Below are positions 1 to 56,618 of a stretch of DNA of 56,618 bases, one piece after another (within the stretch, counting starts at the first letter, position 1; every line of letters starts with the position of its first letter). Below the pieces are notes generated by a model. The model ran no database searches and was not told the origin of the DNA. It saw only the letters and a program-made list of their open reading frames with translations. Origin of the DNA: a virus. The position numbers and the translations under genes are program-made. The DNA lies in UHGV virus genome UHGV-2050067, one strand, 5' to 3'.

Positions 1-362
1 AGTTTGTAGCGCATATCGTCGATGAGTTCCAACATCTGCCGCCGCTGGTGCTCTTCACGTAGTAGCTGTGCGTATCCCTTCAGGTTGGCAGCAGACGGGC
101 ACGATCGCGCCGTTTGCATTAGCGGTACGAAATTTTCATTACCAATCTCATCACCGACCAGCAATGCATCAATAAGATTTCTGTTTCTGGCTTGTGCCCG
201 GATAACTTCAAACGCACGTTTATAGAGCGGGATCGTGAACACTTCAGGATCAAGCGTGGCGAGAACATCTTGCGCGTTAGGAGTAAGGCCGCCCAACAGC
301 AGCCCGCCGATAACTGACGCTTCACGTTCCTGCCGTAGTGAGTTTATTTGCTCAGTTACCAT
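1..362 (-). CDS. replicative DNA helicase (DnaB-like), 5' portion; gene runs off the window start
   Basis: Minus-strand ATG at 362 gives [57 protein letters not shown]..., colinear with the N-terminus of the helicase ORF at 55260-56555; SD ggagg upstream. Confidence 0.7.
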
Positions 363-1533: not shown

Positions 1534-2202
1534 TTAGTTACAAGTTAAAAGCTCAGTGATCCATACTTGTCCTTTAGCAGTGAATACAGCCTGCTCATAT
1601 CCATCGTGAGTTACCCTCATTTCACCGTAGCCCTCATCAATAAACCACTGACTAAATACACGGCGGCGACAGCGAAGATCGTAAACACCAACAGCCGAAA
1701 GTTTTCTGTTTAATTTTACGGCTGACATTCCCAGCGGTTTAGCAACCTCTGAAGCCGTTCGGTGCATATCGTTTTTGACTATCGCGTCACATACAGCCGC
1801 TTTTGGCGCAAGTTCCTTATTAACCAGTGCAAGCCGTTCTTTTTCCTCAGCAAGATCGGCAGCAAGGCGCAACGCTTCGCTTAATGTTTGAGGAATTGCA
1901 GGGGCGTTTTGCTGTACCCGTTTTTCAAGTTCCTGCCAGCGGTCGATGATGCGAGCACGTAACTCAACGCTATAGCCAGATACAACCAGCAAAGAGTCAC
2001 GCTTAGTTAAAAGCCATTCCCTCTGTGTTTGATTGTTGTATCCTTTGTAAGTTACTGATTTGCTTGATTCCCCCAAATTTGGGGCAATGGCGTCAATGTC
2101 TCTCAATATGTGATCGTGCCGTTTACCAGTTAGCTTGGCGATCTCACGAGAAGACATTGTTAATACTTCGTTCGCCCCATTAAGCGCCATTAATTCAGAC
2201 AT
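1534..2202 (-). CDS. Rha-family phage regulatory protein / antirepressor
   Basis: 222-aa ORF; N-terminal SSREIAKLTGKRHDHILRDI resembles the Rha domain; C-terminal Ant/KilAC-like region. Confidence 0.65.
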   Translation of the reverse strand: MSELMALNGANEVLTMSSREIAKLTGKRHDHILRDIDAIAPNLGESSKSVTYKGYNNQTQREWLLTKRDSLLVVSGYSVELRARIIDRWQELEKRVQQNAPAIPQTLSEALRLAADLAEEKERLALVNKELAPKAAVCDAIVKNDMHRTASEVAKPLGMSAVKLNRKLSAVGVYDLRCRRRVFSQWFIDEGYGEMRVTHDGYEQAVFTAKGQVWITELLTCN

Positions 2203-2220
2203 TTTATTTTCTCCGGTTTA

Positions 2221-2236
2221 CTGAATATATATTCAC
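2221..2236 (-). promoter_or_regulatory. palindromic operator candidate (SOS-box-like) upstream of the antirepressor gene
   Basis: cTGAATATATATTCAc contains a perfect 14-bp palindrome about 20 nt upstream of the ant start codon; resembles the LexA box with symmetric substitutions. Confidence 0.35.
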
Positions 2237-2283
2237 AAAGAAAATTGACATCACCCGCCATAAATGACGTGGTTCTAATGCTT

Positions 2284-4101
2284 TCAATGGTGAAATAAAC
2301 CTTTAACCTTGCTAAAGAATCCGTCTTCTGGCTTTTTATCGAGCCGGTACAGTAATTCTTTTACTTTGTCTTGCAATGCCATTATCAGCTTACGATAACG
2401 TTCATGATTGCGCTGTTGACGCTGTTTCAGGTCGCCCATGTACCGTTTTTGTGCTGCCCGGCGTTGCATGTTGCGAGCAATCAGTTTGTTATATCTGTCT
2501 GATAGTTGGTTATAGCCAGATTGTAAGATGTTCACATTATTTTGCAGTTCCAGTTTATCATCCTCAAGTTCTGCCACTTTAAGCTGATAGCCCTTGATAA
2601 CTAGAGCCTTGTTGCTTGCCTCCTGTTGTTGCGCTTTGATTGTTTCCTTCGCTTCTGCCAGATCTGTACGAATGTCGTTGATTGTTTGTTTGTCTGCCGC
2701 AGCTTTCGCTTTTGCGTCGTCGTTATTTGCAGCGTTGACCTTTTGTCTTAGTTCGCAATTAGTTTTAACCAGATTGTCGCGCTCACTTTCTAGCTTCTGG
2801 CGTTTACCCTGTTCGTCACCAAATGCCTTATTCGCCTTGCTGTATTGGTGTTTCCAATAATCAACGCGGAGTTGGTAGCTGTCGCGATCTTCTCTCGCTA
2901 TGTTGAGCACTCCATGTAATTCCTTGATTTGTCCCTCCAGCGTTTTTACCTGGCATTTAAGATCTCCCACCTGTTTGCTATCTGTTTGCTGCGCAATAGC
3001 CGCGCTGATAGGGTTGTCTTTAAATTTGCGAAAAGCTACTGATAAATCAACCCTGTCCTTTTCCGCTCCTATCCGTGCCACGATCATTCCTGCGATCTCA
3101 AGCGGTGCATATCCTTTTTTGATCTGCATGTCACATTGTTCAGTGCAATAAATATAGCCAGGTAATTTATTCAAGCTTTCAATGCGGTGGCGTAATTCAT
3201 CCTCATTAATACCATACGCCGCAGCAATATCCATCAGATTGATTTCATCGGCGTCATTAACGCTAATATTATGACCGTGAAATTTGAATACTCGCGGTAA
3301 CTCATGTTCATGCGGTTCCGTGTTACTTTCTTGTTTCATTTCGTCACCCTTGTAATAACGCTGTTTTATGCGCTCCGCTTCTTCTGGTGAGATATAATCA
3401 GGGAAGTGGTTCATTTGCTTACCGTAGTATCTAATTTCGCCGTTGATGCGCTCTTTTATTGCGTCGTTAATATTATCGAAATAACCAAAGCCGTGATTTA
3501 TTGTATTAACTTTAATTGTTGCTTCCCATTTATTTTTCGCCTTATTCCATAGAACGCCCTTGATACCGCTATTTCCCCAAGGCTTACGTTTTATGCCTCT
3601 TTCGCCGCGTGATATTAATTTCAGGTTTTCAATTTTCGCGCATGAATTATCGCCGTTTTCTATTACATACCCATCAGGAATAGGGCCGTTAAACATTTCC
3701 CACACAACGCGATGCAGTTGATAATAGCGATCTTTTACACCGATTTGCAAACGTTCATAATCAGTGCCTTTTTTGCATTTAAACCCGCGAATTATATCGC
3801 CTGGTTTAATACGACATTTCCCACGCCCCCTAGTCACCTTACTAATCAGAAAACCATCAGGATGATAATCAAACAGTTCAGGCCAATTTTCCGCGCACTG
3901 GCTGCAATCAGCGTACTGAATATCGCCAGCTTCCACCGCTGTTATTTCCTTCCAATAGCCACCGGCCACCATGCGTACAAACTCGCTTTCTTTACCCCAA
4001 TGATTCCACGTTTGATATTTACGCTTCCGCATAAACACCATTCCTTCATCAATTTTTGCAAACAATTTACTTCCTCTTATCGATATAAAATATCTAGACA
4101 T
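2284..4101 (-). CDS. HNH_3-like/AP2-domain homing-endonuclease-like protein with long C-terminal coiled coil
   Basis: 605-aa ORF; HRVVWEMFNGPIPDGYVIENGDNSCAKIENLKL matches the HNH_3 pattern but lacks the catalytic His-Asp; GIKGVLWNKAKNKWEATI is AP2-like; C-terminal ~300 aa heptad-rich. Confidence 0.55.
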   Translation of the reverse strand: MSRYFISIRGSKLFAKIDEGMVFMRKRKYQTWNHWGKESEFVRMVAGGYWKEITAVEAGDIQYADCSQCAENWPELFDYHPDGFLISKVTRGRGKCRIKPGDIIRGFKCKKGTDYERLQIGVKDRYYQLHRVVWEMFNGPIPDGYVIENGDNSCAKIENLKLISRGERGIKRKPWGNSGIKGVLWNKAKNKWEATIKVNTINHGFGYFDNINDAIKERINGEIRYYGKQMNHFPDYISPEEAERIKQRYYKGDEMKQESNTEPHEHELPRVFKFHGHNISVNDADEINLMDIAAAYGINEDELRHRIESLNKLPGYIYCTEQCDMQIKKGYAPLEIAGMIVARIGAEKDRVDLSVAFRKFKDNPISAAIAQQTDSKQVGDLKCQVKTLEGQIKELHGVLNIAREDRDSYQLRVDYWKHQYSKANKAFGDEQGKRQKLESERDNLVKTNCELRQKVNAANNDDAKAKAAADKQTINDIRTDLAEAKETIKAQQQEASNKALVIKGYQLKVAELEDDKLELQNNVNILQSGYNQLSDRYNKLIARNMQRRAAQKRYMGDLKQRQQRNHERYRKLIMALQDKVKELLYRLDKKPEDGFFSKVKGLFHH

Positions 4102-4267
4102 TATTAATACCTCGCATTTAGTAATTTGCTTTTACATAGATACAATCAATAAAACGCGCTACAACGCAAAATTCCACCGCGACACCCGTTTGCACAGGTT
4201 GCAGTGTCTTATTGCGCCAGAGGCGCTCTCATATGGCTAATTTTTGATTTACAGACTGGTAGGTTGG

Positions 4268-4369
4268 TTATGGATTGACTAGAAGGAACAAACCGCCGAA
4301 CAAGGCGACGTTAACAGCGATTGCCGCAGCGATGGCAAAAGCCAGGGCGAAAACGTGTTTACCGTCCAT
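4268..4369 (-). CDS. mini-ORF, 33-aa hydrophobic single-pass peptide
   Basis: MDGKHVFALAFAIAAAIAVNVALFGGLFLLVNP with SD gagagg 7 nt upstream; in the 400-bp gap between the organizer and HNH genes; absent from the track (<60 aa). Confidence 0.3.
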   Translation of the reverse strand: MDGKHVFALAFAIAAAIAVNVALFGGLFLLVNP

Positions 4370-4502
4370 TTTAAAATCCTCTCTGTAACGCTCTATAACG
4401 AGCTAATCGCAAAAAGGTAAGCAAGTATAGCACCACATGCGATTTATCTCGCTGGCGAGCTTGTTTTGCGGGTTATTTTGGGTTTTTGTGGATCGTGGTT
4501 AG

Positions 4503-5555
4503 TCAAATAGCGCCAGCGCGTGTATCGCGTAGCGTTTTTGGTTTAAGCAGGAAATCAAGTGTCGCTGTGAAGCCATCGCCGAAGTAAAAGTCTGAAGCCT
4601 TGCTCTTGAATGCTTCAAAGTAGGCGATAAAGCCGTTAATGCTTTTGTCTTTCAGGTAGTCAGTGAACGCATAGATCTTGCGTTCAAGATCCCGGTCCAG
4701 TTCAGCAGGTGGCAACAGGCCATCAAACGTGATGTTAAACTCATTTACCACATCGGCAGCGTTTACAGTAACTGACAGATTGCGCCATTGTTCAGCATCA
4801 GCAAGATACCCATCGAATTTAGTTACCCGGCAAATGTTAACAGGCTTAGGCACTCCACCACGGCTACGCCATTGCGTCAAAGCCCACTCAATCACTAATG
4901 TGATCTCATCCTCCGTATACGCTTTACGTGTTTTTGTTTCTGTCAGTAGTTCGATGAATGGCTTCGCATCACGACATTTGCATCCTGCCTTGTCGTTGTA
5001 GAAGGCCAGGCAACGCAACGCCGCTTCGTTTACGCCATCATGATTGACCATTTTTTGTTCATTTTCGACAATACACGAAGTGTATATATCTTTTTCTCTT
5101 TCTTCTTCTACTTCTAATTCTAATTCATGACCCTTTCCTGACCCGGTCATGACCCTATCATGACCTTTTTGTGTTGGATTGATTAACTTTTCTAATTTTA
5201 ATTGCTCCTTAGCTGTGTTTATGGCGGCCCTGTACGCGCTTTTAGAAGTCATTGATTGGTCAAGCCTTTTCAATAACTTTAAACAAGTTATGTGGCCTTG
5301 AGAACATTCAAACAAACCAATTTCGATGAAGTATTTCATCATTTCTTCTATACGTTTTTCAGTCGATCCGACGTTTCGCGCAATGATTCTCGCGTCATGT
5401 CGTAGGTCAAAAGTCAGATTGTGCTGATCTACGTCATAAGTTATTAGTTCGAGGCAATACCAATAAAGCCCGTACCCTTCCAGGCCATAATCAAGCAAGA
5501 CGTTTTGAAGTTTTTCATCGCGGTTCGCATCGCTATCATGCTTAAACCACTTCAT
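4503..5555 (-). CDS. replication initiation / replisome organizer protein (O-like role)
   Basis: 350-aa ORF; N-terminus MKWFKHDSDANRDEKLQNVLLDYGLEGYGLYWYCLELI resembles the phage replisome-organizer N-terminal domain; iterons and an AT-rich tract lie inside the gene. Confidence 0.6.
   Translation of the reverse strand: MKWFKHDSDANRDEKLQNVLLDYGLEGYGLYWYCLELITYDVDQHNLTFDLRHDARIIARNVGSTEKRIEEMMKYFIEIGLFECSQGHITCLKLLKRLDQSMTSKSAYRAAINTAKEQLKLEKLINPTQKGHDRVMTGSGKGHELELEVEEEREKDIYTSCIVENEQKMVNHDGVNEAALRCLAFYNDKAGCKCRDAKPFIELLTETKTRKAYTEDEITLVIEWALTQWRSRGGVPKPVNICRVTKFDGYLADAEQWRNLSVTVNAADVVNEFNITFDGLLPPAELDRDLERKIYAFTDYLKDKSINGFIAYFEAFKSKASDFYFGDGFTATLDFLLKPKTLRDTRAGAI
5080..5166. other. candidate origin of replication (AT-rich tract plus three TCATGACC iterons) inside the organizer gene
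   Basis: tcatgaccc at 5125 and 5147, tcatgacct at 5158, preceded by tgtatatatctttttctctttcttcttctacttctaattctaattc; analogous to lambda ori inside O. Confidence 0.4.
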
Positions 5556-5558
5556 AGA

Positions 5559-5891
5559 TCATTCCTCCGGTAACATCACTACATAGACATCACTGAACGC
5601 ATCAAGACGACAAACAAACCCTTTATGCATTAACGCGGCGAAGGCATCATGTACCGTATGAACAGGAAGTTCACACATTTTTGCGATTTCTTGTCGTGAT
5701 ACCATGACGTGACGGCGGTTATCTGCCTTTTCAGCCAGAGCCATTAAGACCAGTTTTTGAATCAGGCTGTTAAGTTTTACTTTCCATACTTCGCTAATCA
5801 TGTTCATGCTCATTGTATTTTCTCCTATGGTTAAAATGAACGCGCGGGCGGGCATCCCATTAGCATTAGATAGCAGTGACTGACCGCTCAA
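5559..5891 (-). CDS. winged-helix HTH protein, first gene of the leftward early operon
   Basis: 110-aa ORF; LIQKLVLMALAEKADNRRHVMVSRQEIAKMCELPVHTVHDAFAALMHKGFV resembles HTH_36 domains of replication proteins; divergent from the CI-like gene. Confidence 0.5.
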   Translation of the reverse strand: MSGQSLLSNANGMPARAFILTIGENTMSMNMISEVWKVKLNSLIQKLVLMALAEKADNRRHVMVSRQEIAKMCELPVHTVHDAFAALMHKGFVCRLDAFSDVYVVMLPEE

Positions 5892-5994: not shown

Positions 5995-6058
5995 TTGCAT
6001 CATTGCAACTATGGCCTTACCTTGTTTGCAAGTTTACAGAATGGCGTTGACAGGTCAA
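5995..6058. promoter_or_regulatory. immunity switch region: three palindromic operator candidates spaced about 26 bp apart
   Basis: TTGCAtcatTGCAA (5995-6008), cTTGtttgCAAg (6021-6032), TTGACaggTCAA (6047-6058) between divergent early and repressor genes. Confidence 0.45.
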
Positions 6059-6117: not shown

Positions 6118-6765
6118 ATGAAAACAAAATGGTATGACTTAGCAAAACAACTCATGCGGGCGCAGGGCATGAGCCAGGATTCATTGGCTGATCTCATGGG
6201 GATAACCAAAGGTGGCCTTTCGCACTGGCTGAACGGTCGCCGTGAGCCGAATCTTGAAGATATTGCGCGTATCATGCGGGCGCTTGGGCGTCGGCAATTC
6301 ACTGTTACTCATGACGGAATGGTCATTGATGATTCTGTTTCTAACACGTTGCCGGGAGCGCCACCGCGTGATTTAGGCAGTTACCCGGTTGTTGACTGGA
6401 AGGATGTAGCAAACAATATGGAAGGCACACACCGATCAACATTGCCACACGTTGCTACTAGCGTTATTTGTTCGGATGATAGTTATTGGCTGGTTGCTAA
6501 AGGTGAATCAATGAACGCACCGCAAGGGTTGAGCATCCCGGCGGGGACTATGATACTTGTTGACCCGCACGCGCCAGCTATTGACGGAAAACTTGTTATA
6601 GCACAACTGGAGGAAGGGCAGATACCTACGTTTAAACAGTTGATTATTGATGGAGGCCGAAAACTTTTGCGTTCACTAAATCCGTTGTATCCGCCGATCC
6701 CTATGAATCCAGAGTCAAAAATCATTGGCGTGGTTGTTGACGCGAAGATCGTAAACCTGCCATAA
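6118..6765 (+). CDS. CI-like phage repressor (HTH_XRE plus S24 LexA-like peptidase domain)
   Basis: 215-aa ORF; N-terminal HTH (QDSLADLMGITKGGLSHWLNGRREP); C-terminal S24 motifs (VAKGESMNAPQ Ser, IDGKLVIAQL Lys). Confidence 0.85.
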   Translation: MKTKWYDLAKQLMRAQGMSQDSLADLMGITKGGLSHWLNGRREPNLEDIARIMRALGRRQFTVTHDGMVIDDSVSNTLPGAPPRDLGSYPVVDWKDVANNMEGTHRSTLPHVATSVICSDDSYWLVAKGESMNAPQGLSIPAGTMILVDPHAPAIDGKLVIAQLEEGQIPTFKQLIIDGGRKLLRSLNPLYPPIPMNPESKIIGVVVDAKIVNLP

Positions 6766-6770
6766 ACATT

Positions 6771-6796
6771 AGCCGCCGAATGGCGGCTTTTCTTTG
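6771..6796 (+). terminator. rho-independent terminator downstream of the repressor gene
   Basis: agccgcc-gaat-ggcggct hairpin followed by tttctttg. Confidence 0.6.
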
Positions 6797-7376: not shown

Positions 7377-7496
7377 ATGGTTATTCAGGCGCTCCAATTC
7401 AAACTAGCAGTAGCGGAAATGCTTCACGATGCCGAAATGTGGAGCGCCGCGAATAAAGCCTTATGCATAGTGTTAACAGCGAAGGAGGCTAGTTAA
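7377..7496 (+). CDS. small ORF (39 aa), hypothetical
   Basis: ATG at 7377 preceded by SD cggaggtgacatt; stop overlaps the HNH start (taATGg). Confidence 0.3.
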   Translation: MVIQALQFKLAVAEMLHDAEMWSAANKALCIVLTAKEAS

Positions 7497-8026
7497 TGGC
7501 TTATTCAAAACATGGAATGACGCACACAAAACTTTATGAAGTTTTCAAAGGAATGAAAACGAGATGCAGGAAAAGCGATAAGAATCCAAAAAATAAACAC
7601 TATAAAGATAAAGGTATAGCCATATGTGATGAGTGGTTGAATGATTCATCAAGGTTTATCGAGTGGGCTTTAAATAACGGTTATCAGGAAGGGTTAGAAA
7701 TAGACAGGACTGATAACGATAAAGGTTACTCCCCGGATAATTGCCGATGGGTTACACATGCTGAAAACATGCGTAATACATGTAAAACCAGAATATTAAC
7801 AGTGAATGGGGAAACTAACACAATACATTATTTTTCTGAAAAATACAGTATAGGTGAGGACACCATACGTTCAAGATTACGTCGCGGCTGGAGTCATGAA
7901 GCCGCTGTACTTCTTCCTTTAAGAAAGGGGAAACGATGTGAAGAAAGATTTATACAAAAAATTGTGGCTAATTCAGCAGCAATTAAAAGCGCCAAAATCT
8001 CAACGCAACTCATACGGTGGTTATAA
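7496..8026 (+). CDS. HNH endonuclease
   Basis: 176-aa ORF; DRTDNDKGYSPDNCRWVTHAENMRNT is an HNH-type motif; strong SD gaaggagg; 3' end overlaps the erf start by about 89 nt. Confidence 0.65.
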   Translation: MAYSKHGMTHTKLYEVFKGMKTRCRKSDKNPKNKHYKDKGIAICDEWLNDSSRFIEWALNNGYQEGLEIDRTDNDKGYSPDNCRWVTHAENMRNTCKTRILTVNGETNTIHYFSEKYSIGEDTIRSRLRRGWSHEAAVLLPLRKGKRCEERFIQKIVANSAAIKSAKISTQLIRWL

Positions 8027-55259: not shown

Positions 55260-56618
55260 TTAAAAGGATGCGTTATTCTGGTTGTTTCGTTGGTTAAATC
55301 GACTTGTGCGATGATTCATCGACTGAATACATGCAGACGCTGCGCGGGCCTGGTCGCAAGGGAGGATATTGCCGTTGTCGTCAAATCGCTGGTAAACAGT
55401 CCCCGTTTTCCCGTGACGGTTTTTCGAAACAATGATCTCCATATATTCGCGGGCAACAGACTGTTCATCATAGTACCCGTCGCGATAGACCATGATGATC
55501 CGGTCTGCGTCCTGTTCAAGATTCCCGGAATCGCGCAGATCAGAATTATTCGGGCGCTTGTTCGGTCGTTCCTCAACGCGGCGGGATAATTGCGCCAGCG
55601 CCAACACTGGTACGCGCAATTCTTTCGCCATCATCTTCAACGACCATGACAATTGCCCTACAGCGAGATCGTGACGTTCGGCCTTAGCCAGCTTCATTAG
55701 ACCGATGTAGTCAATCATTACCATACCCAGGTTCGGGTGTTCCTGCTTCATGCGTTCCGTTGTTGCGCGTATTTCCTCAACCGTCAACTGCGACGCGTCA
55801 ACGATCCACACCTCAAGATTAGCAAGTGCGCTCATCCCCTGGCCTACATGCGCCCAACCCTCATCATCAAGTTTTACCGGATTGCGCAGGCAGTCAGTTG
55901 ATAAATTACCAGCGCCAGCGATAGCACGCTCAGTCATCTGATCGAGTGACATTTCAAGCGTGAAGAGCAAAACGCCAACCCGCTGTTCTTTACCACCAGG
56001 GTAAGGGCGTTCAGCGGCTGCGCGGGCAATTGTCAGCGCCAACGCAGATTTACCAGACCCAGGGCGTCCGGCGAGAAGTACCAAATCAGTAGCGTTAATG
56101 CCGCCCAACATTTCGTCGAGTGGTTCTATACCTGTTTTGATGTTGTCAGAATTGACACCGCATTCCATGCGCGTGCTTAAAACATCCGTATATTCCTGTA
56201 CCGCATCGCGCAACAGAACCGGAATGATCTTATCTTTCGTTACCTTCAATTTTGAATACCGGGAATCAAAATCTTTCATCGTCTCTTTGACGACCTCAAG
56301 CGTCCCCGTTTCCAGTTTGTAGCGCATATCGTCGATGAGTTCCAACATCTGCCGCCGCTGGTGCTCTTCACGTAGTAGCTGTGCGTATCCTTTCAGGTTT
56401 GCGGCAGAAGGACACGATCGCGCCGTTTGCATCAGAGGAACAAAGTTTTCATTGCCAATCTCATCGCCAACCAATAACGCGTCGATAAGATTCCTGTTTC
56501 TGGCTTGCGCCCGGATAACCTCAAACGCACGTTTGTAAAGCGGGATCGTGAACACTTCAGGATCCAGAGTGGCGAGAACATCTTGCGCGTTAGGAGTGAG
56601 GCCGCCTAACAGCAGCCC
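55260..56618 (-). CDS. replicative DNA helicase (DnaB-like); 5' end lies beyond the window end
   Basis: Walker A LLAGRPGSGKSALALT and DnaB-like C-terminal domain; reading frame stays open upstream of the track start at 56555 to the window edge, matching the longer N-terminus of the left-edge copy. Confidence 0.85.
   Translation of the reverse strand, partial: GLLLGGLTPNAQDVLATLDPEVFTIPLYKRAFEVIRAQARNRNLIDALLVGDEIGNENFVPLMQTARSCPSAANLKGYAQLLREEHQRRQMLELIDDMRYKLETGTLEVVKETMKDFDSRYSKLKVTKDKIIPVLLRDAVQEYTDVLSTRMECGVNSDNIKTGIEPLDEMLGGINATDLVLLAGRPGSGKSALALTIARAAAERPYPGGKEQRVGVLLFTLEMSLDQMTERAIAGAGNLSTDCLRNPVKLDDEGWAHVGQGMSALANLEVWIVDASQLTVEEIRATTERMKQEHPNLGMVMIDYIGLMKLAKAERHDLAVGQLSWSLKMMAKELRVPVLALAQLSRRVEERPNKRPNNSDLRDSGNLEQDADRIIMVYRDGYYDEQSVAREYMEIIVSKNRHGKTGTVYQRFDDNGNILPCDQARAASACIQSMNHRTSRFNQRNNQNNASF

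What the first reader, a model, noticed from the sequence alone, without database searches (positions are those of the whole stretch)
2284..4101. HNH_3/AP2 homing-endonuclease-like protein with degenerate catalytic motif fused to a 300-aa coiled coil, inside the replication operon
The HNH_3 pattern is present but the usual His-Asp catalytic pair appears replaced (VIENGDN), suggesting a DNA-binding rather than nucleolytic role. The long C-terminal coiled coil is atypical for homing endonucleases. It sits between the initiator and antirepressor genes, separated from the initiator by a 400-bp gap that also holds a mini-ORF.
Basis: partly seen in the sequence, partly recalled or inferred. Interest (0 to 1): 0.45.

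Follow-up and report, generated by a model that had tools for sequence, protein, structure and literature searches.

The report
Dead homing endonuclease with coiled-coil tail
An optional early gene of an E. coli temperate phage encodes a homing-endonuclease-derived protein that has lost every catalytic residue and is fused to further DNA-binding-type domains and a long coiled coil, so it most likely binds DNA rather than cutting it; its role is untested.

Summary
The ORF is real: 2284-4101, minus strand, 605 aa, with a good RBS.

Pfam HNH_3 matches aa 127-167 (E=2e-11). Alignment to I-HmuI (1u3e) and to intact phage relatives shows that three catalytic residues are replaced:
- Asp74 becomes E148.
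- His75 becomes N149, in 47 of 47 family members.
- Asn96 becomes R168, which is never Asn in the family.

The family is still under purifying selection (dN/dS 0.20-0.27, every domain below 0.5), so this is a retained pseudo-nuclease, not a decaying gene.

After the nuclease-like part come three further elements:
- an AP2-like sheet-plus-helix domain;
- about 215 aa of two-segment coiled coil, not 300 aa, ending in a conserved basic tail.

The C-terminal 351 aa match nothing outside this E. coli-restricted family among 1.84 billion cluster representatives.

The gene is a clean 1,934-bp presence/absence cassette. Its slot also holds T5orf172-type homing endonucleases in relatives.

Best reading: a domesticated homing endonuclease acting as an oligomeric DNA-binding early protein. 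Function is untested. I rate it a new variant of a known kind, of moderate interest.

The parts
2284..4101 (-). Complete ORF, 605 aa including stop: the HNH_3-like / AP2-like / KilA-N-like / coiled-coil protein
   Evidence: ORF list. 47 full-length homologs at 51-85% identity. dN/dS 0.20-0.27.
4110..4113 (-). Ribosome-binding site GAGG, 8 nt upstream of the ATG
   Evidence: Sequence. Anti-SD duplex energy -7.2 kcal/mol, top 3.6% of background.
2216..4149 (-). The 1,934-bp presence/absence cassette: the ORF plus 48 bp upstream and 68 bp downstream
   Evidence: In the E. coli 2-331 prophage (L003), window 2215 is joined directly to window 4150. In mEp010 the missing block is 1540-4149, which is this gene plus Ant.
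3937..4101 (-). N-terminal small beta-rich domain (aa 1-55), with several allelic versions in the family
   Evidence: AF2 strands and one helix, pLDDT 69-80. Variable in A1/A2. No family match.
3592..3918 (-). Homing-endonuclease core (aa 62-170): an invariant C66-x2-C69...H80...C154 cluster, NUMOD4-like strands and the HNH_3 beta-beta-alpha region
   Evidence: phrog_99 covers aa 70-260. 37% identity to the intact mEp010_11 homing endonuclease, E=7e-18. Invariant residues listed. Aa 61-90 is the most constrained stretch, pN/pS 0.14.
3601..3723 (-). Pfam HNH_3 match (aa 127-167)
   Evidence: E=2.1e-11, 43.7 bits against cut-off 24.8.
3655..3660 (-). E148-N149, which replace the metal-ligand Asp and the general-base His (I-HmuI D74-H75)
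   Evidence: Alignment A5 with 1u3e and seven intact relatives. Family tally: N149 in 47/47; position 148 is E in 33, K in 11.
3598..3600 (-). R168, at the position of the metal-ligand Asn of the helix (I-HmuI N96)
   Evidence: A5. In the family this position is R/C/G/S/K/L/I, never N.
3424..3570 (-). AP2-like domain (aa 178-226): three strands plus a helix
   Evidence: Pfam AP2 is sub-threshold, E=0.0022-0.025. AF2 topology E183-186, E191-198, E201-208, H211-226. Foldseek hits to TEM1 and PfAP2 AP2 domains, prob 0.63-0.99. The region aligns to the AP2 part of intact relatives.
3016..3300 (-). Globular middle domain (aa 268-362) with a KilA-N/APSES-like fold; two allelic versions about 30% identical
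2338..2979 (-). Coiled coil (aa 375-588) in two segments, 375-458 and 471-588, separated by the conserved hinge NDDAKAKAAADKQT; includes the conserved basic stretch RRAAQKRYM...YRKL...LLYRLDKK
   Evidence: AF2 helices. No Pro, and a consistent heptad register that changes near aa 462. Only generic coiled-coil matches. Heptad-scale indels in the family. Tail pN/pS 0.19-0.22.
2287..2337 (-). C-terminal tail (aa 589-605): KKPEDG linker plus the short conserved helix GFFSKVKGLFHH
   Evidence: A2 invariant residues G594, K600, F603. AF2 helix 595-603. Amphipathic moment is unremarkable.
4102..4502 (-). Conserved 401-bp intergenic gap between the initiator gene and the cassette. It is present whether or not the cassette is there.
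   Evidence: 87-95% identical in mEp010, mEp021 and L003. No sigma-70-like promoter was found for the gene in this gap.
4155..4168 (-). Weak terminator-like hairpin plus T-run, immediately upstream of the cassette boundary (4149/4150)
   Evidence: Scan. Junction sequences. mEp010 annotates a terminator here.

Best explanation
The gene encodes a domesticated, catalytically dead homing endonuclease.

Shown:
- Aa 62-236 are a complete free-standing HNH_3 + AP2-type homing-endonuclease module, of the I-HmuI group.
- In that module the general-base His, the preceding metal-ligand Asp and the helix metal-ligand Asn are replaced by N149, E148 and R168.
- The module is fused to a KilA-N/APSES-like domain, a roughly 215-aa two-segment coiled coil and a conserved basic tail.
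- The gene is an optional single-gene cassette. It lies in a homing-endonuclease landing site of the early leftward replication operon.
- It has its own RBS. No sigma-70-like promoter of its own was found.
- It is under purifying selection.

Inferred:
- The gene is made early after induction or infection, by read-through from the repressor-controlled early promoter.
- The protein no longer cleaves DNA.
- The ex-nuclease/AP2 module and the KilA-N-like domain bind specific DNA.
- The coiled coil makes the protein dimeric or higher-order.
- Together this gives a multivalent DNA binder that acts as a repressor, roadblock or DNA-bridging factor on phage or competitor DNA. This is how CapR and Smad MH1 reuse nuclease-derived DNA-binding modules.
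For: Loss of catalysis:
- A5 aligns I-HmuI (sequence verified as 1u3e_M) and seven intact relatives, which all read (I/V)DH...NN.ENLR...(E/Q)N. The target reads IEN...-- .ENLK...ER.
- The family tally gives N149 in 47/47, E or K at 148, and never Asn at 168.
- Residue roles are taken from PMC2816704.
- PMC5714182 describes the His as nearly invariant and describes His-less His-Me fingers as inactive DNA binders.

Retention by selection:
- dN/dS is 0.20-0.27 overall and 0.14-0.40 for the HNH core.
- No sliding window exceeds 0.69.
- 47 full-length homologs exist.

Extra DNA-binding-type domains:
- AP2-like domain.
- KilA-N/APSES-like fold.

Coiled coil.

Optional cassette in a homing-endonuclease hotspot:
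- Clean junctions.
- The gene is absent from 33 E. coli prophages that share both flanks and from mEp010 and mEp021.
- The same slot holds CapR-domain + T5orf172 homing endonucleases in mEp021 and L015.

Early-operon expression: an RBS is present but no promoter was found.

Precedent for a domesticated homing-endonuclease module used as a repressor: PMC8096241.
Against: - No experiment supports any of this. DNA binding, oligomeric state and the target are all inferred.
- AP2 and KilA-N both fail their Pfam thresholds. hhalign against one genuine KilA-N protein found nothing.
- The full-length model is poor over the HNH region (pLDDT 42-52), so the structural integrity of the dead active site is unverified.
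- N159, equivalent to I-HmuI N87, is retained, and E148 could still ligate a metal.
- The promoter scan is a crude consensus search.
- The C-terminal 351 aa have no detectable relatives, so that half's role is open and could be protein-protein rather than DNA-related.
Confidence: 0.55

Rival explanations
1. It is still an active, mobile homing endonuclease or nickase that uses non-canonical chemistry. For example, E148 and N159 could bind the metal, and another residue such as H130, K156 or a Tyr could activate water. The presence/absence pattern would then reflect ongoing homing.
For: - The clean intergenic presence/absence polymorphism lies in a slot that also receives T5orf172 homing endonucleases.
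- The HNH_3 fold signature is retained above threshold.
- N159 is kept in 41/47 and K156 is invariant.
- PMC2816704 reports about 1% residual activity for a general-base His-to-Ala mutant of HpyAV.
- PacI-type enzymes substitute Tyr for the His.
Against: - Three catalytic positions are replaced at once, family-wide.
- Position 148 is Lys in 11 members, which is incompatible with a metal ligand.
- Position 168 varies freely (R/C/G/S/K).
- H130 is Ser/Thr in 21 of 47 members, and there is no conserved Tyr in the loop.
- The gene is embedded and translationally coupled in a second prophage type. That arrangement fits an established gene better than a freshly homing one.
Confidence: 0.07
2. It is a decaying remnant: a homing endonuclease that lost activity after fixation and is drifting towards loss, with no function of its own.
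For: - The catalytic residues are lost.
- One allele is split by an in-frame stop at codon 179 and is found on 13 contigs.
- The gene is rare: there is no blastn match in 5,426 complete RefSeq E. coli genomes.
Against: - dN/dS is 0.20-0.27, and every domain including the dead HNH core is below 0.5.
- 47 intact full-length homologs diverged to 51% identity.
- The substituted residues are themselves conserved: N149 in 47/47, S153, C154 and K156 invariant.
- The gene occurs in two different prophage types.
Confidence: 0.03
3. It is mainly a protein-binding effector of the antirepressor / Bro / KilA type. On this reading the KilA-N-like domain, coiled coil and basic tail bind a repressor, a replication protein or a host factor. 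The dead nuclease module would be only an anchor or a vestige.
For: - In the mEpimmI contexts examined it is always followed by a Rha-type gene, with a KilAC/ANT domain in most.
- The tail is the most constrained C-terminal part, pN/pS 0.19-0.22.
- BFVD neighbours of the middle domain include antirepressor N-terminal domains.
- Coiled coils are typical protein-interaction modules.
- The gene lies next to replication-initiator genes in both prophage types.
Against: - The nuclease/AP2 half is as strongly conserved as the rest; aa 61-90 give pN/pS 0.14.
- In the eutB-site prophage there is no neighbouring Ant.
- No partner gene is shared between the two contexts.
- KilA-N/APSES domains are DNA-binding domains (PMC8096241).
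Confidence: 0.2
4. It is an inter-phage conflict factor. A dead endonuclease that still recognises a homing-endonuclease target, or a competitor's DNA, could shield the site from cleavage (anti-homing immunity) or silence co-infecting relatives or satellites.
For: - Relatives carry intact HNH-AP2 homing endonucleases (mEp010_11, mEp021_10) that are 37% identical to the dead module and share a 44-nt patch of 91% DNA identity.
- All 9 contexts with an intact copy lack that homing endonuclease at the 372-aa-gene/helicase junction, whereas the lineage with the broken copy has it.
- The most variable parts are the loop before the HNH helix and the first AP2 strand, pN/pS 0.57-0.69.
- CapR is a precedent.
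Against: - The co-occurrence pattern is not informative. The canonical homing endonuclease also has no megablast match (roughly >=85% identity) in any complete E. coli genome, including the 33 that carry the flanks but lack the gene.
- The broken-copy contigs are clonal.
- No window reaches pN/pS above 1.
- PADLOC finds only a generic homing-endonuclease model.
Confidence: 0.15

Closest known systems
I-HmuI and the HNH_3 / His-Me finger group 2 homing endonucleases (PDB 1u3e; PF13392)
   Same: The Pfam HNH_3 match is above threshold. The order NUMOD4-like strands, beta-beta-alpha region, then a C-terminal DNA-binding domain is the same. The region is alignable over the whole catalytic stretch, and N87-equivalent N159 is kept.
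   Different: D74, H75 and N96 equivalents are E148, N149 and R168, and the NN loop residues are deleted. The protein is 3.5 times longer, with about 345 extra C-terminal residues and a 60-aa N-terminal domain.
Free-standing HNH_3 + AP2 homing endonucleases of related phages (mEp010_11, mEp021_10; Klebsiella KLPN1-type)
   Same: 37% identity over aa 73-232, E=7e-18. The WEMFNGPIPDG and IENL motifs, the SG..GV.W.K..NKW AP2 strands and an intergenic, optional location are shared.
   Different: Those proteins are 150-200 aa and keep the IDH...EN motif. The target has lost it and carries the KilA-N-like domain and coiled coil. It also sits in a different slot of the operon.
CapR of the Vibrio PLE satellite (domesticated homing-endonuclease DNA-binding domain acting as a repressor; PMC8096241)
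   Same: The concept is the same: a homing-endonuclease-derived module without nuclease activity, kept by a mobile element as a DNA-binding regulator. CapR-domain T5orf172 homing endonucleases occupy the very same slot in mEp021 and L015.
   Different: There is no sequence relationship. CapR derives from the zinc-finger DNA-binding part of GIY-YIG/T5orf172 homing endonucleases and has lost the nuclease domain altogether. Here an HNH_3 nuclease domain is retained but disabled, and other domains have been added.
Smad MH1 domain (inactive His-Me finger recruited as a transcription-factor DNA-binding domain; PMC5714182)
   Same: It is a His-Me finger that lacks the catalytic His and is kept as a DNA-binding module.
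   Different: It is eukaryotic, belongs to a different His-Me group, and has no AP2, KilA-N or coiled-coil parts. This is an analogy only.
KilA-N / Bro-N / APSES DNA-binding domains of phage and large-virus regulators (PF04383; Mbp1 1bm8)
   Different: There is no sequence-level membership: Pfam E is about 0.05 on the other allele only, and hhalign was negative. The domain is internal here, not N-terminal.
Plant and apicomplexan AP2/ERF transcription factors
   Same: The three-strand-plus-helix AP2-like domain is a DNA-binding module thought to derive from HNH-AP2 homing endonucleases (Magnani 2004, cited in PMC5714182).
   Different: Those proteins have shed the HNH domain. The match here is sub-threshold in Pfam.

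Membership tests
HNH_3 / I-HmuI-type His-Me finger homing endonuclease | Sequence match to the PF13392 profile above the gathering score | tested here: met
   43.7 bits against 24.8, E=2.1e-11, aa 127-167. phrog_99 E=3.6e-36.
HNH_3 / I-HmuI-type His-Me finger homing endonuclease | General-base His in the first beta-strand (I-HmuI H75) | tested here: not met
   N149 at this position, in 47/47 family members. All seven intact relatives and 1u3e have His.
HNH_3 / I-HmuI-type His-Me finger homing endonuclease | Metal ligand preceding the His (I-HmuI D74; D/E/H allowed in the superfamily) | tested here: inconclusive
   E148 in the window, which is chemically permissible, but Lys in 11 of 47 members, which is not. 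Superfamily rule from PMC5714182.
HNH_3 / I-HmuI-type His-Me finger homing endonuclease | [quoted passage not shown] | tested here: not met
   R168. The family has R/C/G/S/K/L/I here, never N or H.
HNH_3 / I-HmuI-type His-Me finger homing endonuclease | Central Asn of the HNH motif, which hydrogen-bonds the His (I-HmuI N87) | tested here: met
   N159, in 41/47 members. Role from PMC2816704.
HNH_3 / I-HmuI-type His-Me finger homing endonuclease | Site-specific DNA cleavage and homing into empty alleles | not testable with these tools
   Only the presence/absence pattern is visible. Any mosaic accessory gene would give the same pattern.
AP2 DNA-binding domain (PF00847) | Profile match above the gathering score | tested here: not met
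   15.3-18.7 bits against 33.3, and only the first 23 of 54 profile positions match.
AP2 DNA-binding domain (PF00847) | Three-stranded antiparallel sheet packed on one helix | tested here: met
   AF2 gives E183-186, E191-198, E201-208, H211-226 at pLDDT about 70-79. Foldseek hits to TEM1 and PfAP2 AP2 domains have prob 0.63-0.99 but weak E (0.1-0.3).
KilA-N / APSES DNA-binding domain (PF04383) | Profile match above the gathering score | tested here: not met
   No hit for the window's allele. The other allele gives E=0.047-0.055, 14 bits against 23.8. hhalign against a genuine KilA-N protein gives probability 0.4%.
KilA-N / APSES DNA-binding domain (PF04383) | APSES/KilA-N fold | tested here: inconclusive
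SMC / Rad50-type coiled-coil proteins | ABC ATPase head domains flanking the coiled coil | tested here: not met
   Only the coiled-coil region matches SMC models (22.6 bits against 567). There is no ATPase domain in Pfam. Structural hits are to coiled-coil arms only.
Anti-phage defence systems (PADLOC) | Match to a known defence-system protein model | tested here: not met
   Only the generic 'HEase' model matches, at the HNH motif (E=4.6e-6). The neighbours have no hits.

The most novel reading that the evidence does not exclude
The dead endonuclease may still recognise a homing-endonuclease target, or a sequence in rival phages. Held as a multivalent coiled-coil oligomer, it could act as a sequence-specific shield or silencer in phage-phage conflict. 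One version is immunity against invasion by the active HNH-AP2 or T5orf172 homing endonucleases that circulate in the same phage group. Another is repression of a co-resident prophage or satellite. Either would be a phage-encoded 'anti-homing' or CapR-like weapon built from an inactivated nuclease.
Probability: 0.12. Interest if true: 0.7.

Novelty: new variant of a known kind. Interest (0 to 1): 0.4.

Why it matters
Homing endonucleases are usually thought to cycle between invasion, decay and loss. Documented cases where the DNA-recognition machinery is instead kept and re-used are few; CapR, Smad MH1 and the AP2 transcription factors are examples.

This family shows an intermediate state that is rarely seen. 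The whole HNH nuclease fold is kept with all catalytic residues replaced. It is under purifying selection and is welded to a KilA-N-like domain and to an orphan coiled-coil module. The gene also sits in a slot that still receives active homing endonucleases.

If its target and role were found, two things would follow. It would give a tractable E. coli model for how phages domesticate selfish nucleases. It would also assign a function to a C-terminal module that has no detectable relatives among 1.84 billion protein cluster representatives.

As it stands, this is a well-supported annotation refinement with no demonstrated function.

Tried and rejected
1. **Homology of the C-terminal 351 aa.** phmmer against 1.84 billion representatives found only the protein's own family. 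A word-indexed search with the middle domain found two fragments. tblastn against 50,697 phage genomes and 72,556 plasmids found nothing. PDB sequence searches were empty.

2. **Homology with the gene in the same slot of mEp021 (mEp021_12).** There is none. That gene is a CapR/DUF4379 + T5orf172 homing endonuclease.

3. **Full-length fold search.** It was swamped by generic coiled-coil hits.

4. **Internal translation start at M255, giving a KilA-N + coiled-coil isoform.** A conserved AAGG(T/G)G lies upstream. However, the anti-SD energy of -4.3 kcal/mol is unremarkable and the motif is explained by Lys/Glu/Gly codons. Rejected. M24 has a strong SD (-7.6), but the conserved N-terminus favours M1.

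5. **C-terminal GFFSKVKGLF as a MinD-like membrane-targeting amphipathic helix.** The hydrophobic moment is 0.39, the 65th percentile within the protein. Not supported.

6. **bZIP-like reading of the basic tail plus LQDKVKELL.** The spacing differs from the bZIP signature, members have a variable insert between the two parts, and there is no Pfam bZIP hit. Rejected.

7. **Positive selection on DNA-contact surfaces.** No window has pN/pS above 0.69.

8. **Anti-correlation with the canonical homing endonuclease at the helicase junction.** The count is 0 of 9 for intact copies. This is uninformative, because that homing endonuclease also has no megablast match in any of the 5,426 complete genomes, which include the 33 prophages carrying the flanks but lacking the gene.

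9. **Defence-system models.** Only a generic homing-endonuclease hit.

10. **Structured RNA in the gap.** No Rfam hit. No iterons or notable repeats.

11. **Literature on mEp021/mEpimmI phages.** The literature does not discuss this gene.

12. **AFDB50 fold search.** Not available on the machine.
Full report
**What the window is**

The window is slightly more than one unit length of an mEp021/mEpimmI-type temperate coliphage. It is about 88% identical over 66-77% of its first 25 kb to phages mEp010, mEp044, mEp554, mEp515, mEp013 and mEp021. Its first and last 305 bp are 91%-identical copies of the same stretch of the DnaB-type helicase gene.

The finding lies in the leftward early operon that diverges from a LexA-type repressor gene (6118-6765, + strand). 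On the minus strand the gene order is:
- an HTH/MarR-like gene, 5559-5891;
- the Lin1244/O-like replication initiator, 4503-5555;
- a 401-bp gap;
- the target ORF, 2284-4101;
- a Rha + KilAC antirepressor, 1534-2202;
- a 372-aa phrog_704 'DNA repair exonuclease', 381-1499, which is 93% identical to mEp021_11;
- the helicase.

**Checking the observation**

The ORF is 605 aa. A GAGG Shine-Dalgarno sequence lies 8 nt upstream. Its predicted anti-SD duplex energy of -7.2 kcal/mol is in the top 3.6% of positions in the gene. Homologs share the M(A/S)RYF start.

Pfam HNH_3 matches aa 127-167 at E=2.1e-11 (43.7 bits, cut-off 24.8). PHROG phrog_99 'HNH endonuclease' covers aa 70-260 at E=3.6e-36. AP2 is only sub-threshold, at 15-19 bits against 33.3.

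The gap and its 33-aa hydrophobic mini-ORF (4268-4369, with its own RBS) are real. The peptide is 97-100% conserved in mEp010 and two metagenomic relatives.

**The catalytic motif**

I verified the I-HmuI sequence against PDB chain 1u3e_M. I then aligned it with seven intact HNH_3(+AP2) relatives and six family members (A5; see also A4, and the BLASTP against mEp010_11).

Intact proteins read (I/V)-D-H-x-D...N-N-x-I/S-x-N-L-R...(E/Q/D/I)-N. The target reads V-I-E148-N149-G-D-N-S-C-A-[two-residue gap]-K-I-E-N159-L-K...E167-R168.

According to PMC2816704, I-HmuI's residues have these roles:
- the His is the general base;
- the preceding acidic residue, Asp74 in the verified 1u3e sequence (the paper's text says 'glutamate'), and an Asn bind the metal;
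- Asn87 hydrogen-bonds the His.

I assigned the metal-binding Asn to N96 from my recollection of Shen et al. 2004. [quoted passage not shown]

Across 47 aligned family members:

| Position | I-HmuI equivalent | Residues in the family |
|---|---|---|
| 149 | H75 | Asn in 47/47 |
| 148 | D74 | Glu 33, Lys 11 |
| 168 | N96 | R/C/G/S/K/L/I, never Asn or His |
| 159 | N87 | Asn in 41/47 |

PMC5714182 states that the β1 His is nearly invariant in the superfamily. It also states that groups lacking it, with no substitute Tyr, are inactive yet can retain DNA binding, as in Smad MH1.

**Not a decaying gene**

Nei-Gojobori dN/dS against four diverged homologs is 0.20-0.27 overall. It is 0.14-0.40 for the HNH core and below 0.5 for every domain. 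In 30-codon windows over 15 pairs the ratio ranges from 0.14 to 0.69:
- lowest at aa 61-90, which holds the invariant C66-x2-C69...H80 residues;
- 0.19 in the basic tail;
- highest in the loop before the HNH helix.

The replaced residues are themselves conserved: N149, S153, C154 and K156 are invariant. C66, C69, H80 and C154 are invariant and absent from intact relatives. That suggests a structural zinc site, but this is an inference and was not tested.

The gene is mosaic. Against its closest homolog, the DNA encoding aa 1-60 and 546-605 is identical, while the centre has pS 0.3-0.57. One lineage, seen on 13 contigs, carries an in-frame stop at codon 179.

**The rest of the protein**

AlphaFold2 on the 47-sequence alignment gave mean pLDDT 64. 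The model shows:
- a small β-rich N-terminal domain, aa 1-55;
- a poorly resolved nuclease region;
- an AP2-type three-strand-plus-helix unit, aa 183-226;
- a compact domain, aa 270-362;
- two very long helices, aa 375-458 and 471-588;
- a short terminal helix.

Foldseek on this model returned only coiled-coil arms and, with prob 0.63-0.99 but weak E-values, AP2 domains.

Its weak neighbours among viral models are mostly KilA-N, N1R/p28, Bro-N and antirepressor proteins. The family has two versions of this domain, about 30% identical. The other version gives a sub-threshold Pfam KilA-N hit at E of about 0.05. hhalign against a single genuine KilA-N protein was negative. I therefore call it KilA-N/APSES-like in fold, with family membership unproven.

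The coiled coil has these properties:
- no proline in aa 373-590;
- a consistent heptad register that switches at a conserved NDDAKAKAAADKQT hinge;
- heptad-scale indels between homologs;
- only composition-level matches to SMC models, with no ATPase heads.

It covers about 215 residues, not 300.

The C-terminal 351 aa have no relatives outside the family:
- one hit, from its own family, among 1.84 billion cluster representatives;
- none in 50,697 phage genomes or 72,556 plasmids.

**Locus comparison**

The gene is an optional cassette.
- In the E. coli 2-331 prophage (L003), window position 2215 is joined directly to 4150. The missing 1,934 bp are the ORF plus 48 bp upstream and 68 bp downstream.
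- In mEp010 the missing block is 1540-4149, which is this gene plus Ant.
- 33 complete E. coli genomes carry the flanks and none carries the gene. The gene has no blastn match in 5,426 complete RefSeq E. coli genomes.

About 50 homologs, all from E. coli or metagenomes, are 51-85% identical over their full length. Intact copies sit in the same slot of mEpimmI-type prophages. In a second prophage type, integrated beside eutB, they lie in a different and translationally coupled block.

The slot is a homing-endonuclease landing site. mEp021 carries there a protein with six DUF4379/CapR-type zinc-finger repeats plus a T5orf172 domain. One prophage (L015) has such a gene immediately upstream of the family member.

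No σ70-like promoter precedes the gene. A weak hairpin plus T-run lies just upstream of the cassette boundary. These phages are described as Nus-dependent (PMC11893012). Together these points suggest read-through expression from the early promoter near 6031-6058. This is an inference.

**Interpretation**

Shown:
- the homing-endonuclease ancestry;
- family-wide loss of the catalytic residues;
- purifying selection;
- the extra domains;
- the optional-cassette status;
- the hotspot location.

Inferred:
- the protein binds DNA through the ex-nuclease/AP2 and KilA-N-like modules;
- it oligomerises through the coiled coil;
- it acts early as a repressor, roadblock or bridging factor.

The nearest functional analogues are CapR of the Vibrio PLE satellite, a domesticated homing-endonuclease DNA-binding domain that represses phage genes (PMC8096241), and Smad MH1.

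Rivals are weighed in the report sections:
- residual non-canonical nuclease activity, about 0.07;
- junk remnant, about 0.03;
- a protein-binding antirepressor-like effector, about 0.2;
- a phage-phage conflict or anti-homing role, about 0.15.

The anti-homing idea drew on one pattern. All nine contexts with an intact copy lack the canonical HNH-AP2 homing endonuclease at the helicase junction, whereas the broken-copy lineage has it. That homing endonuclease, however, has no megablast match in any of the 5,426 complete genomes, including the 33 that carry the flanks but lack the gene. The pattern therefore carries no weight.

**Verdict**

The protein is a previously uncharacterised, E. coli-restricted family. 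Its sources name it only 'HNH endonuclease' or 'hypothetical protein', and the mEpimmI paper does not discuss it. I class it as a new variant of a known kind, a domesticated homing endonuclease. Interest is moderate because no function has been demonstrated.

Noticed in passing
window 4268-4369 (minus strand): A 33-aa strongly hydrophobic mini-ORF (MDGKHVFALAFAIAAAIAVNVALFGGLFLLVNP) with a good RBS. It is 97-100% identical in mEp010 and two metagenomic relatives, and gene callers predict it in several prophages. It has no PHROG match. It could be a small membrane peptide of the early operon.
   Followed up: partly
window 2215-2251 and about 1500-1545; L001 6975-7002; L002 4455-4485: A similar short linker (GTTTAC-N6-TATAT on the + strand; on the coding strand a TATATT-like box followed by GTAAACCGGAG and the RBS) recurs just upstream of successive genes of the leftward operon. 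It coincides with the cassette junctions. It could be a module-boundary sequence used in recombination, or a weak internal promoter.
   Followed up: partly
L002 4482-5969 (mEp021_12); L015 4827-5969: The same slot downstream of the conserved gap holds, in relatives, proteins with 3-6 DUF4379/CapR zinc-finger repeats plus a T5orf172 (GIY-YIG superfamily) domain. mEp021 annotates its copy only as 'zinc-ribbon domain-containing protein'. These look like ICP1-type homing endonucleases, which makes the slot a homing-endonuclease hotspot.
   Followed up: yes
window 1-305 and 56314-56618: The two ends of the window are 305-bp direct copies of the same helicase-gene segment but differ at 27 positions, mostly third codon positions. 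The window is therefore more than one genome length and joins two helicase alleles. Possible causes are a strain mixture in the assembly, a concatemer, or tandem related prophages.
   Followed up: partly
window 7496-8026 (+): A second HNH-like ORF of 176 aa (phrog_3377, E=6e-48; Pfam HNH_3 only E=0.015). In a low-identity alignment (A4) it shows EIDRTDND where intact relatives have EIDHID, so it may also lack the general-base His.
   Followed up: no
window 381 to about 362 junction; L001 5304-5894; L010 8156-8662: Relatives (mEp010, mEp021 and the L010-L012 prophages) carry an intact 168-196-aa HNH_3+AP2 homing endonuclease between the 376-aa exonuclease-like gene and the helicase. The window lacks it, and the upstream gene is then 372 aa rather than 376 aa. 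A 44-nt patch (window 3671-3714) is 91% identical to that homing-endonuclease gene.
   Followed up: partly
L011 3412-5319 (also L010, L012): An allele of the family is split into 186-aa and 412-aa ORFs by a single in-frame stop at the codon equivalent to G179. It is seen on 13 contigs, probably one clonal prophage lineage.
   Followed up: yes
window 6709-6793 (+): A sub-threshold Rfam match to the isrK Hfq-binding sRNA (26.1 bits against gathering 50, E=0.017, full-length model). It overlaps the 3' end of the repressor gene and the region just downstream.
   Followed up: no
window 1534-2202 versus L003 4035-4775: The antirepressor gene is itself mosaic. Its C-terminal KilAC half is 96% identical to the E. 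coli 2-331 prophage copy. Most of the N-terminal half has no detectable DNA similarity, and some relatives have Rha-only or BRO-family versions.
   Followed up: partly
L007, L013, L014 (prophage beside eutB): The longer family members (677-688 aa) sit in a different prophage integrated next to eutB/eutC. There they lie in a conserved block: 63 aa, 107 aa, the gene, 71 aa, then 526-601 aa. The neighbours scanned (L007 and L013) have no PHROG match. The stop of the 107-aa ORF overlaps the gene's start.
   Followed up: partly
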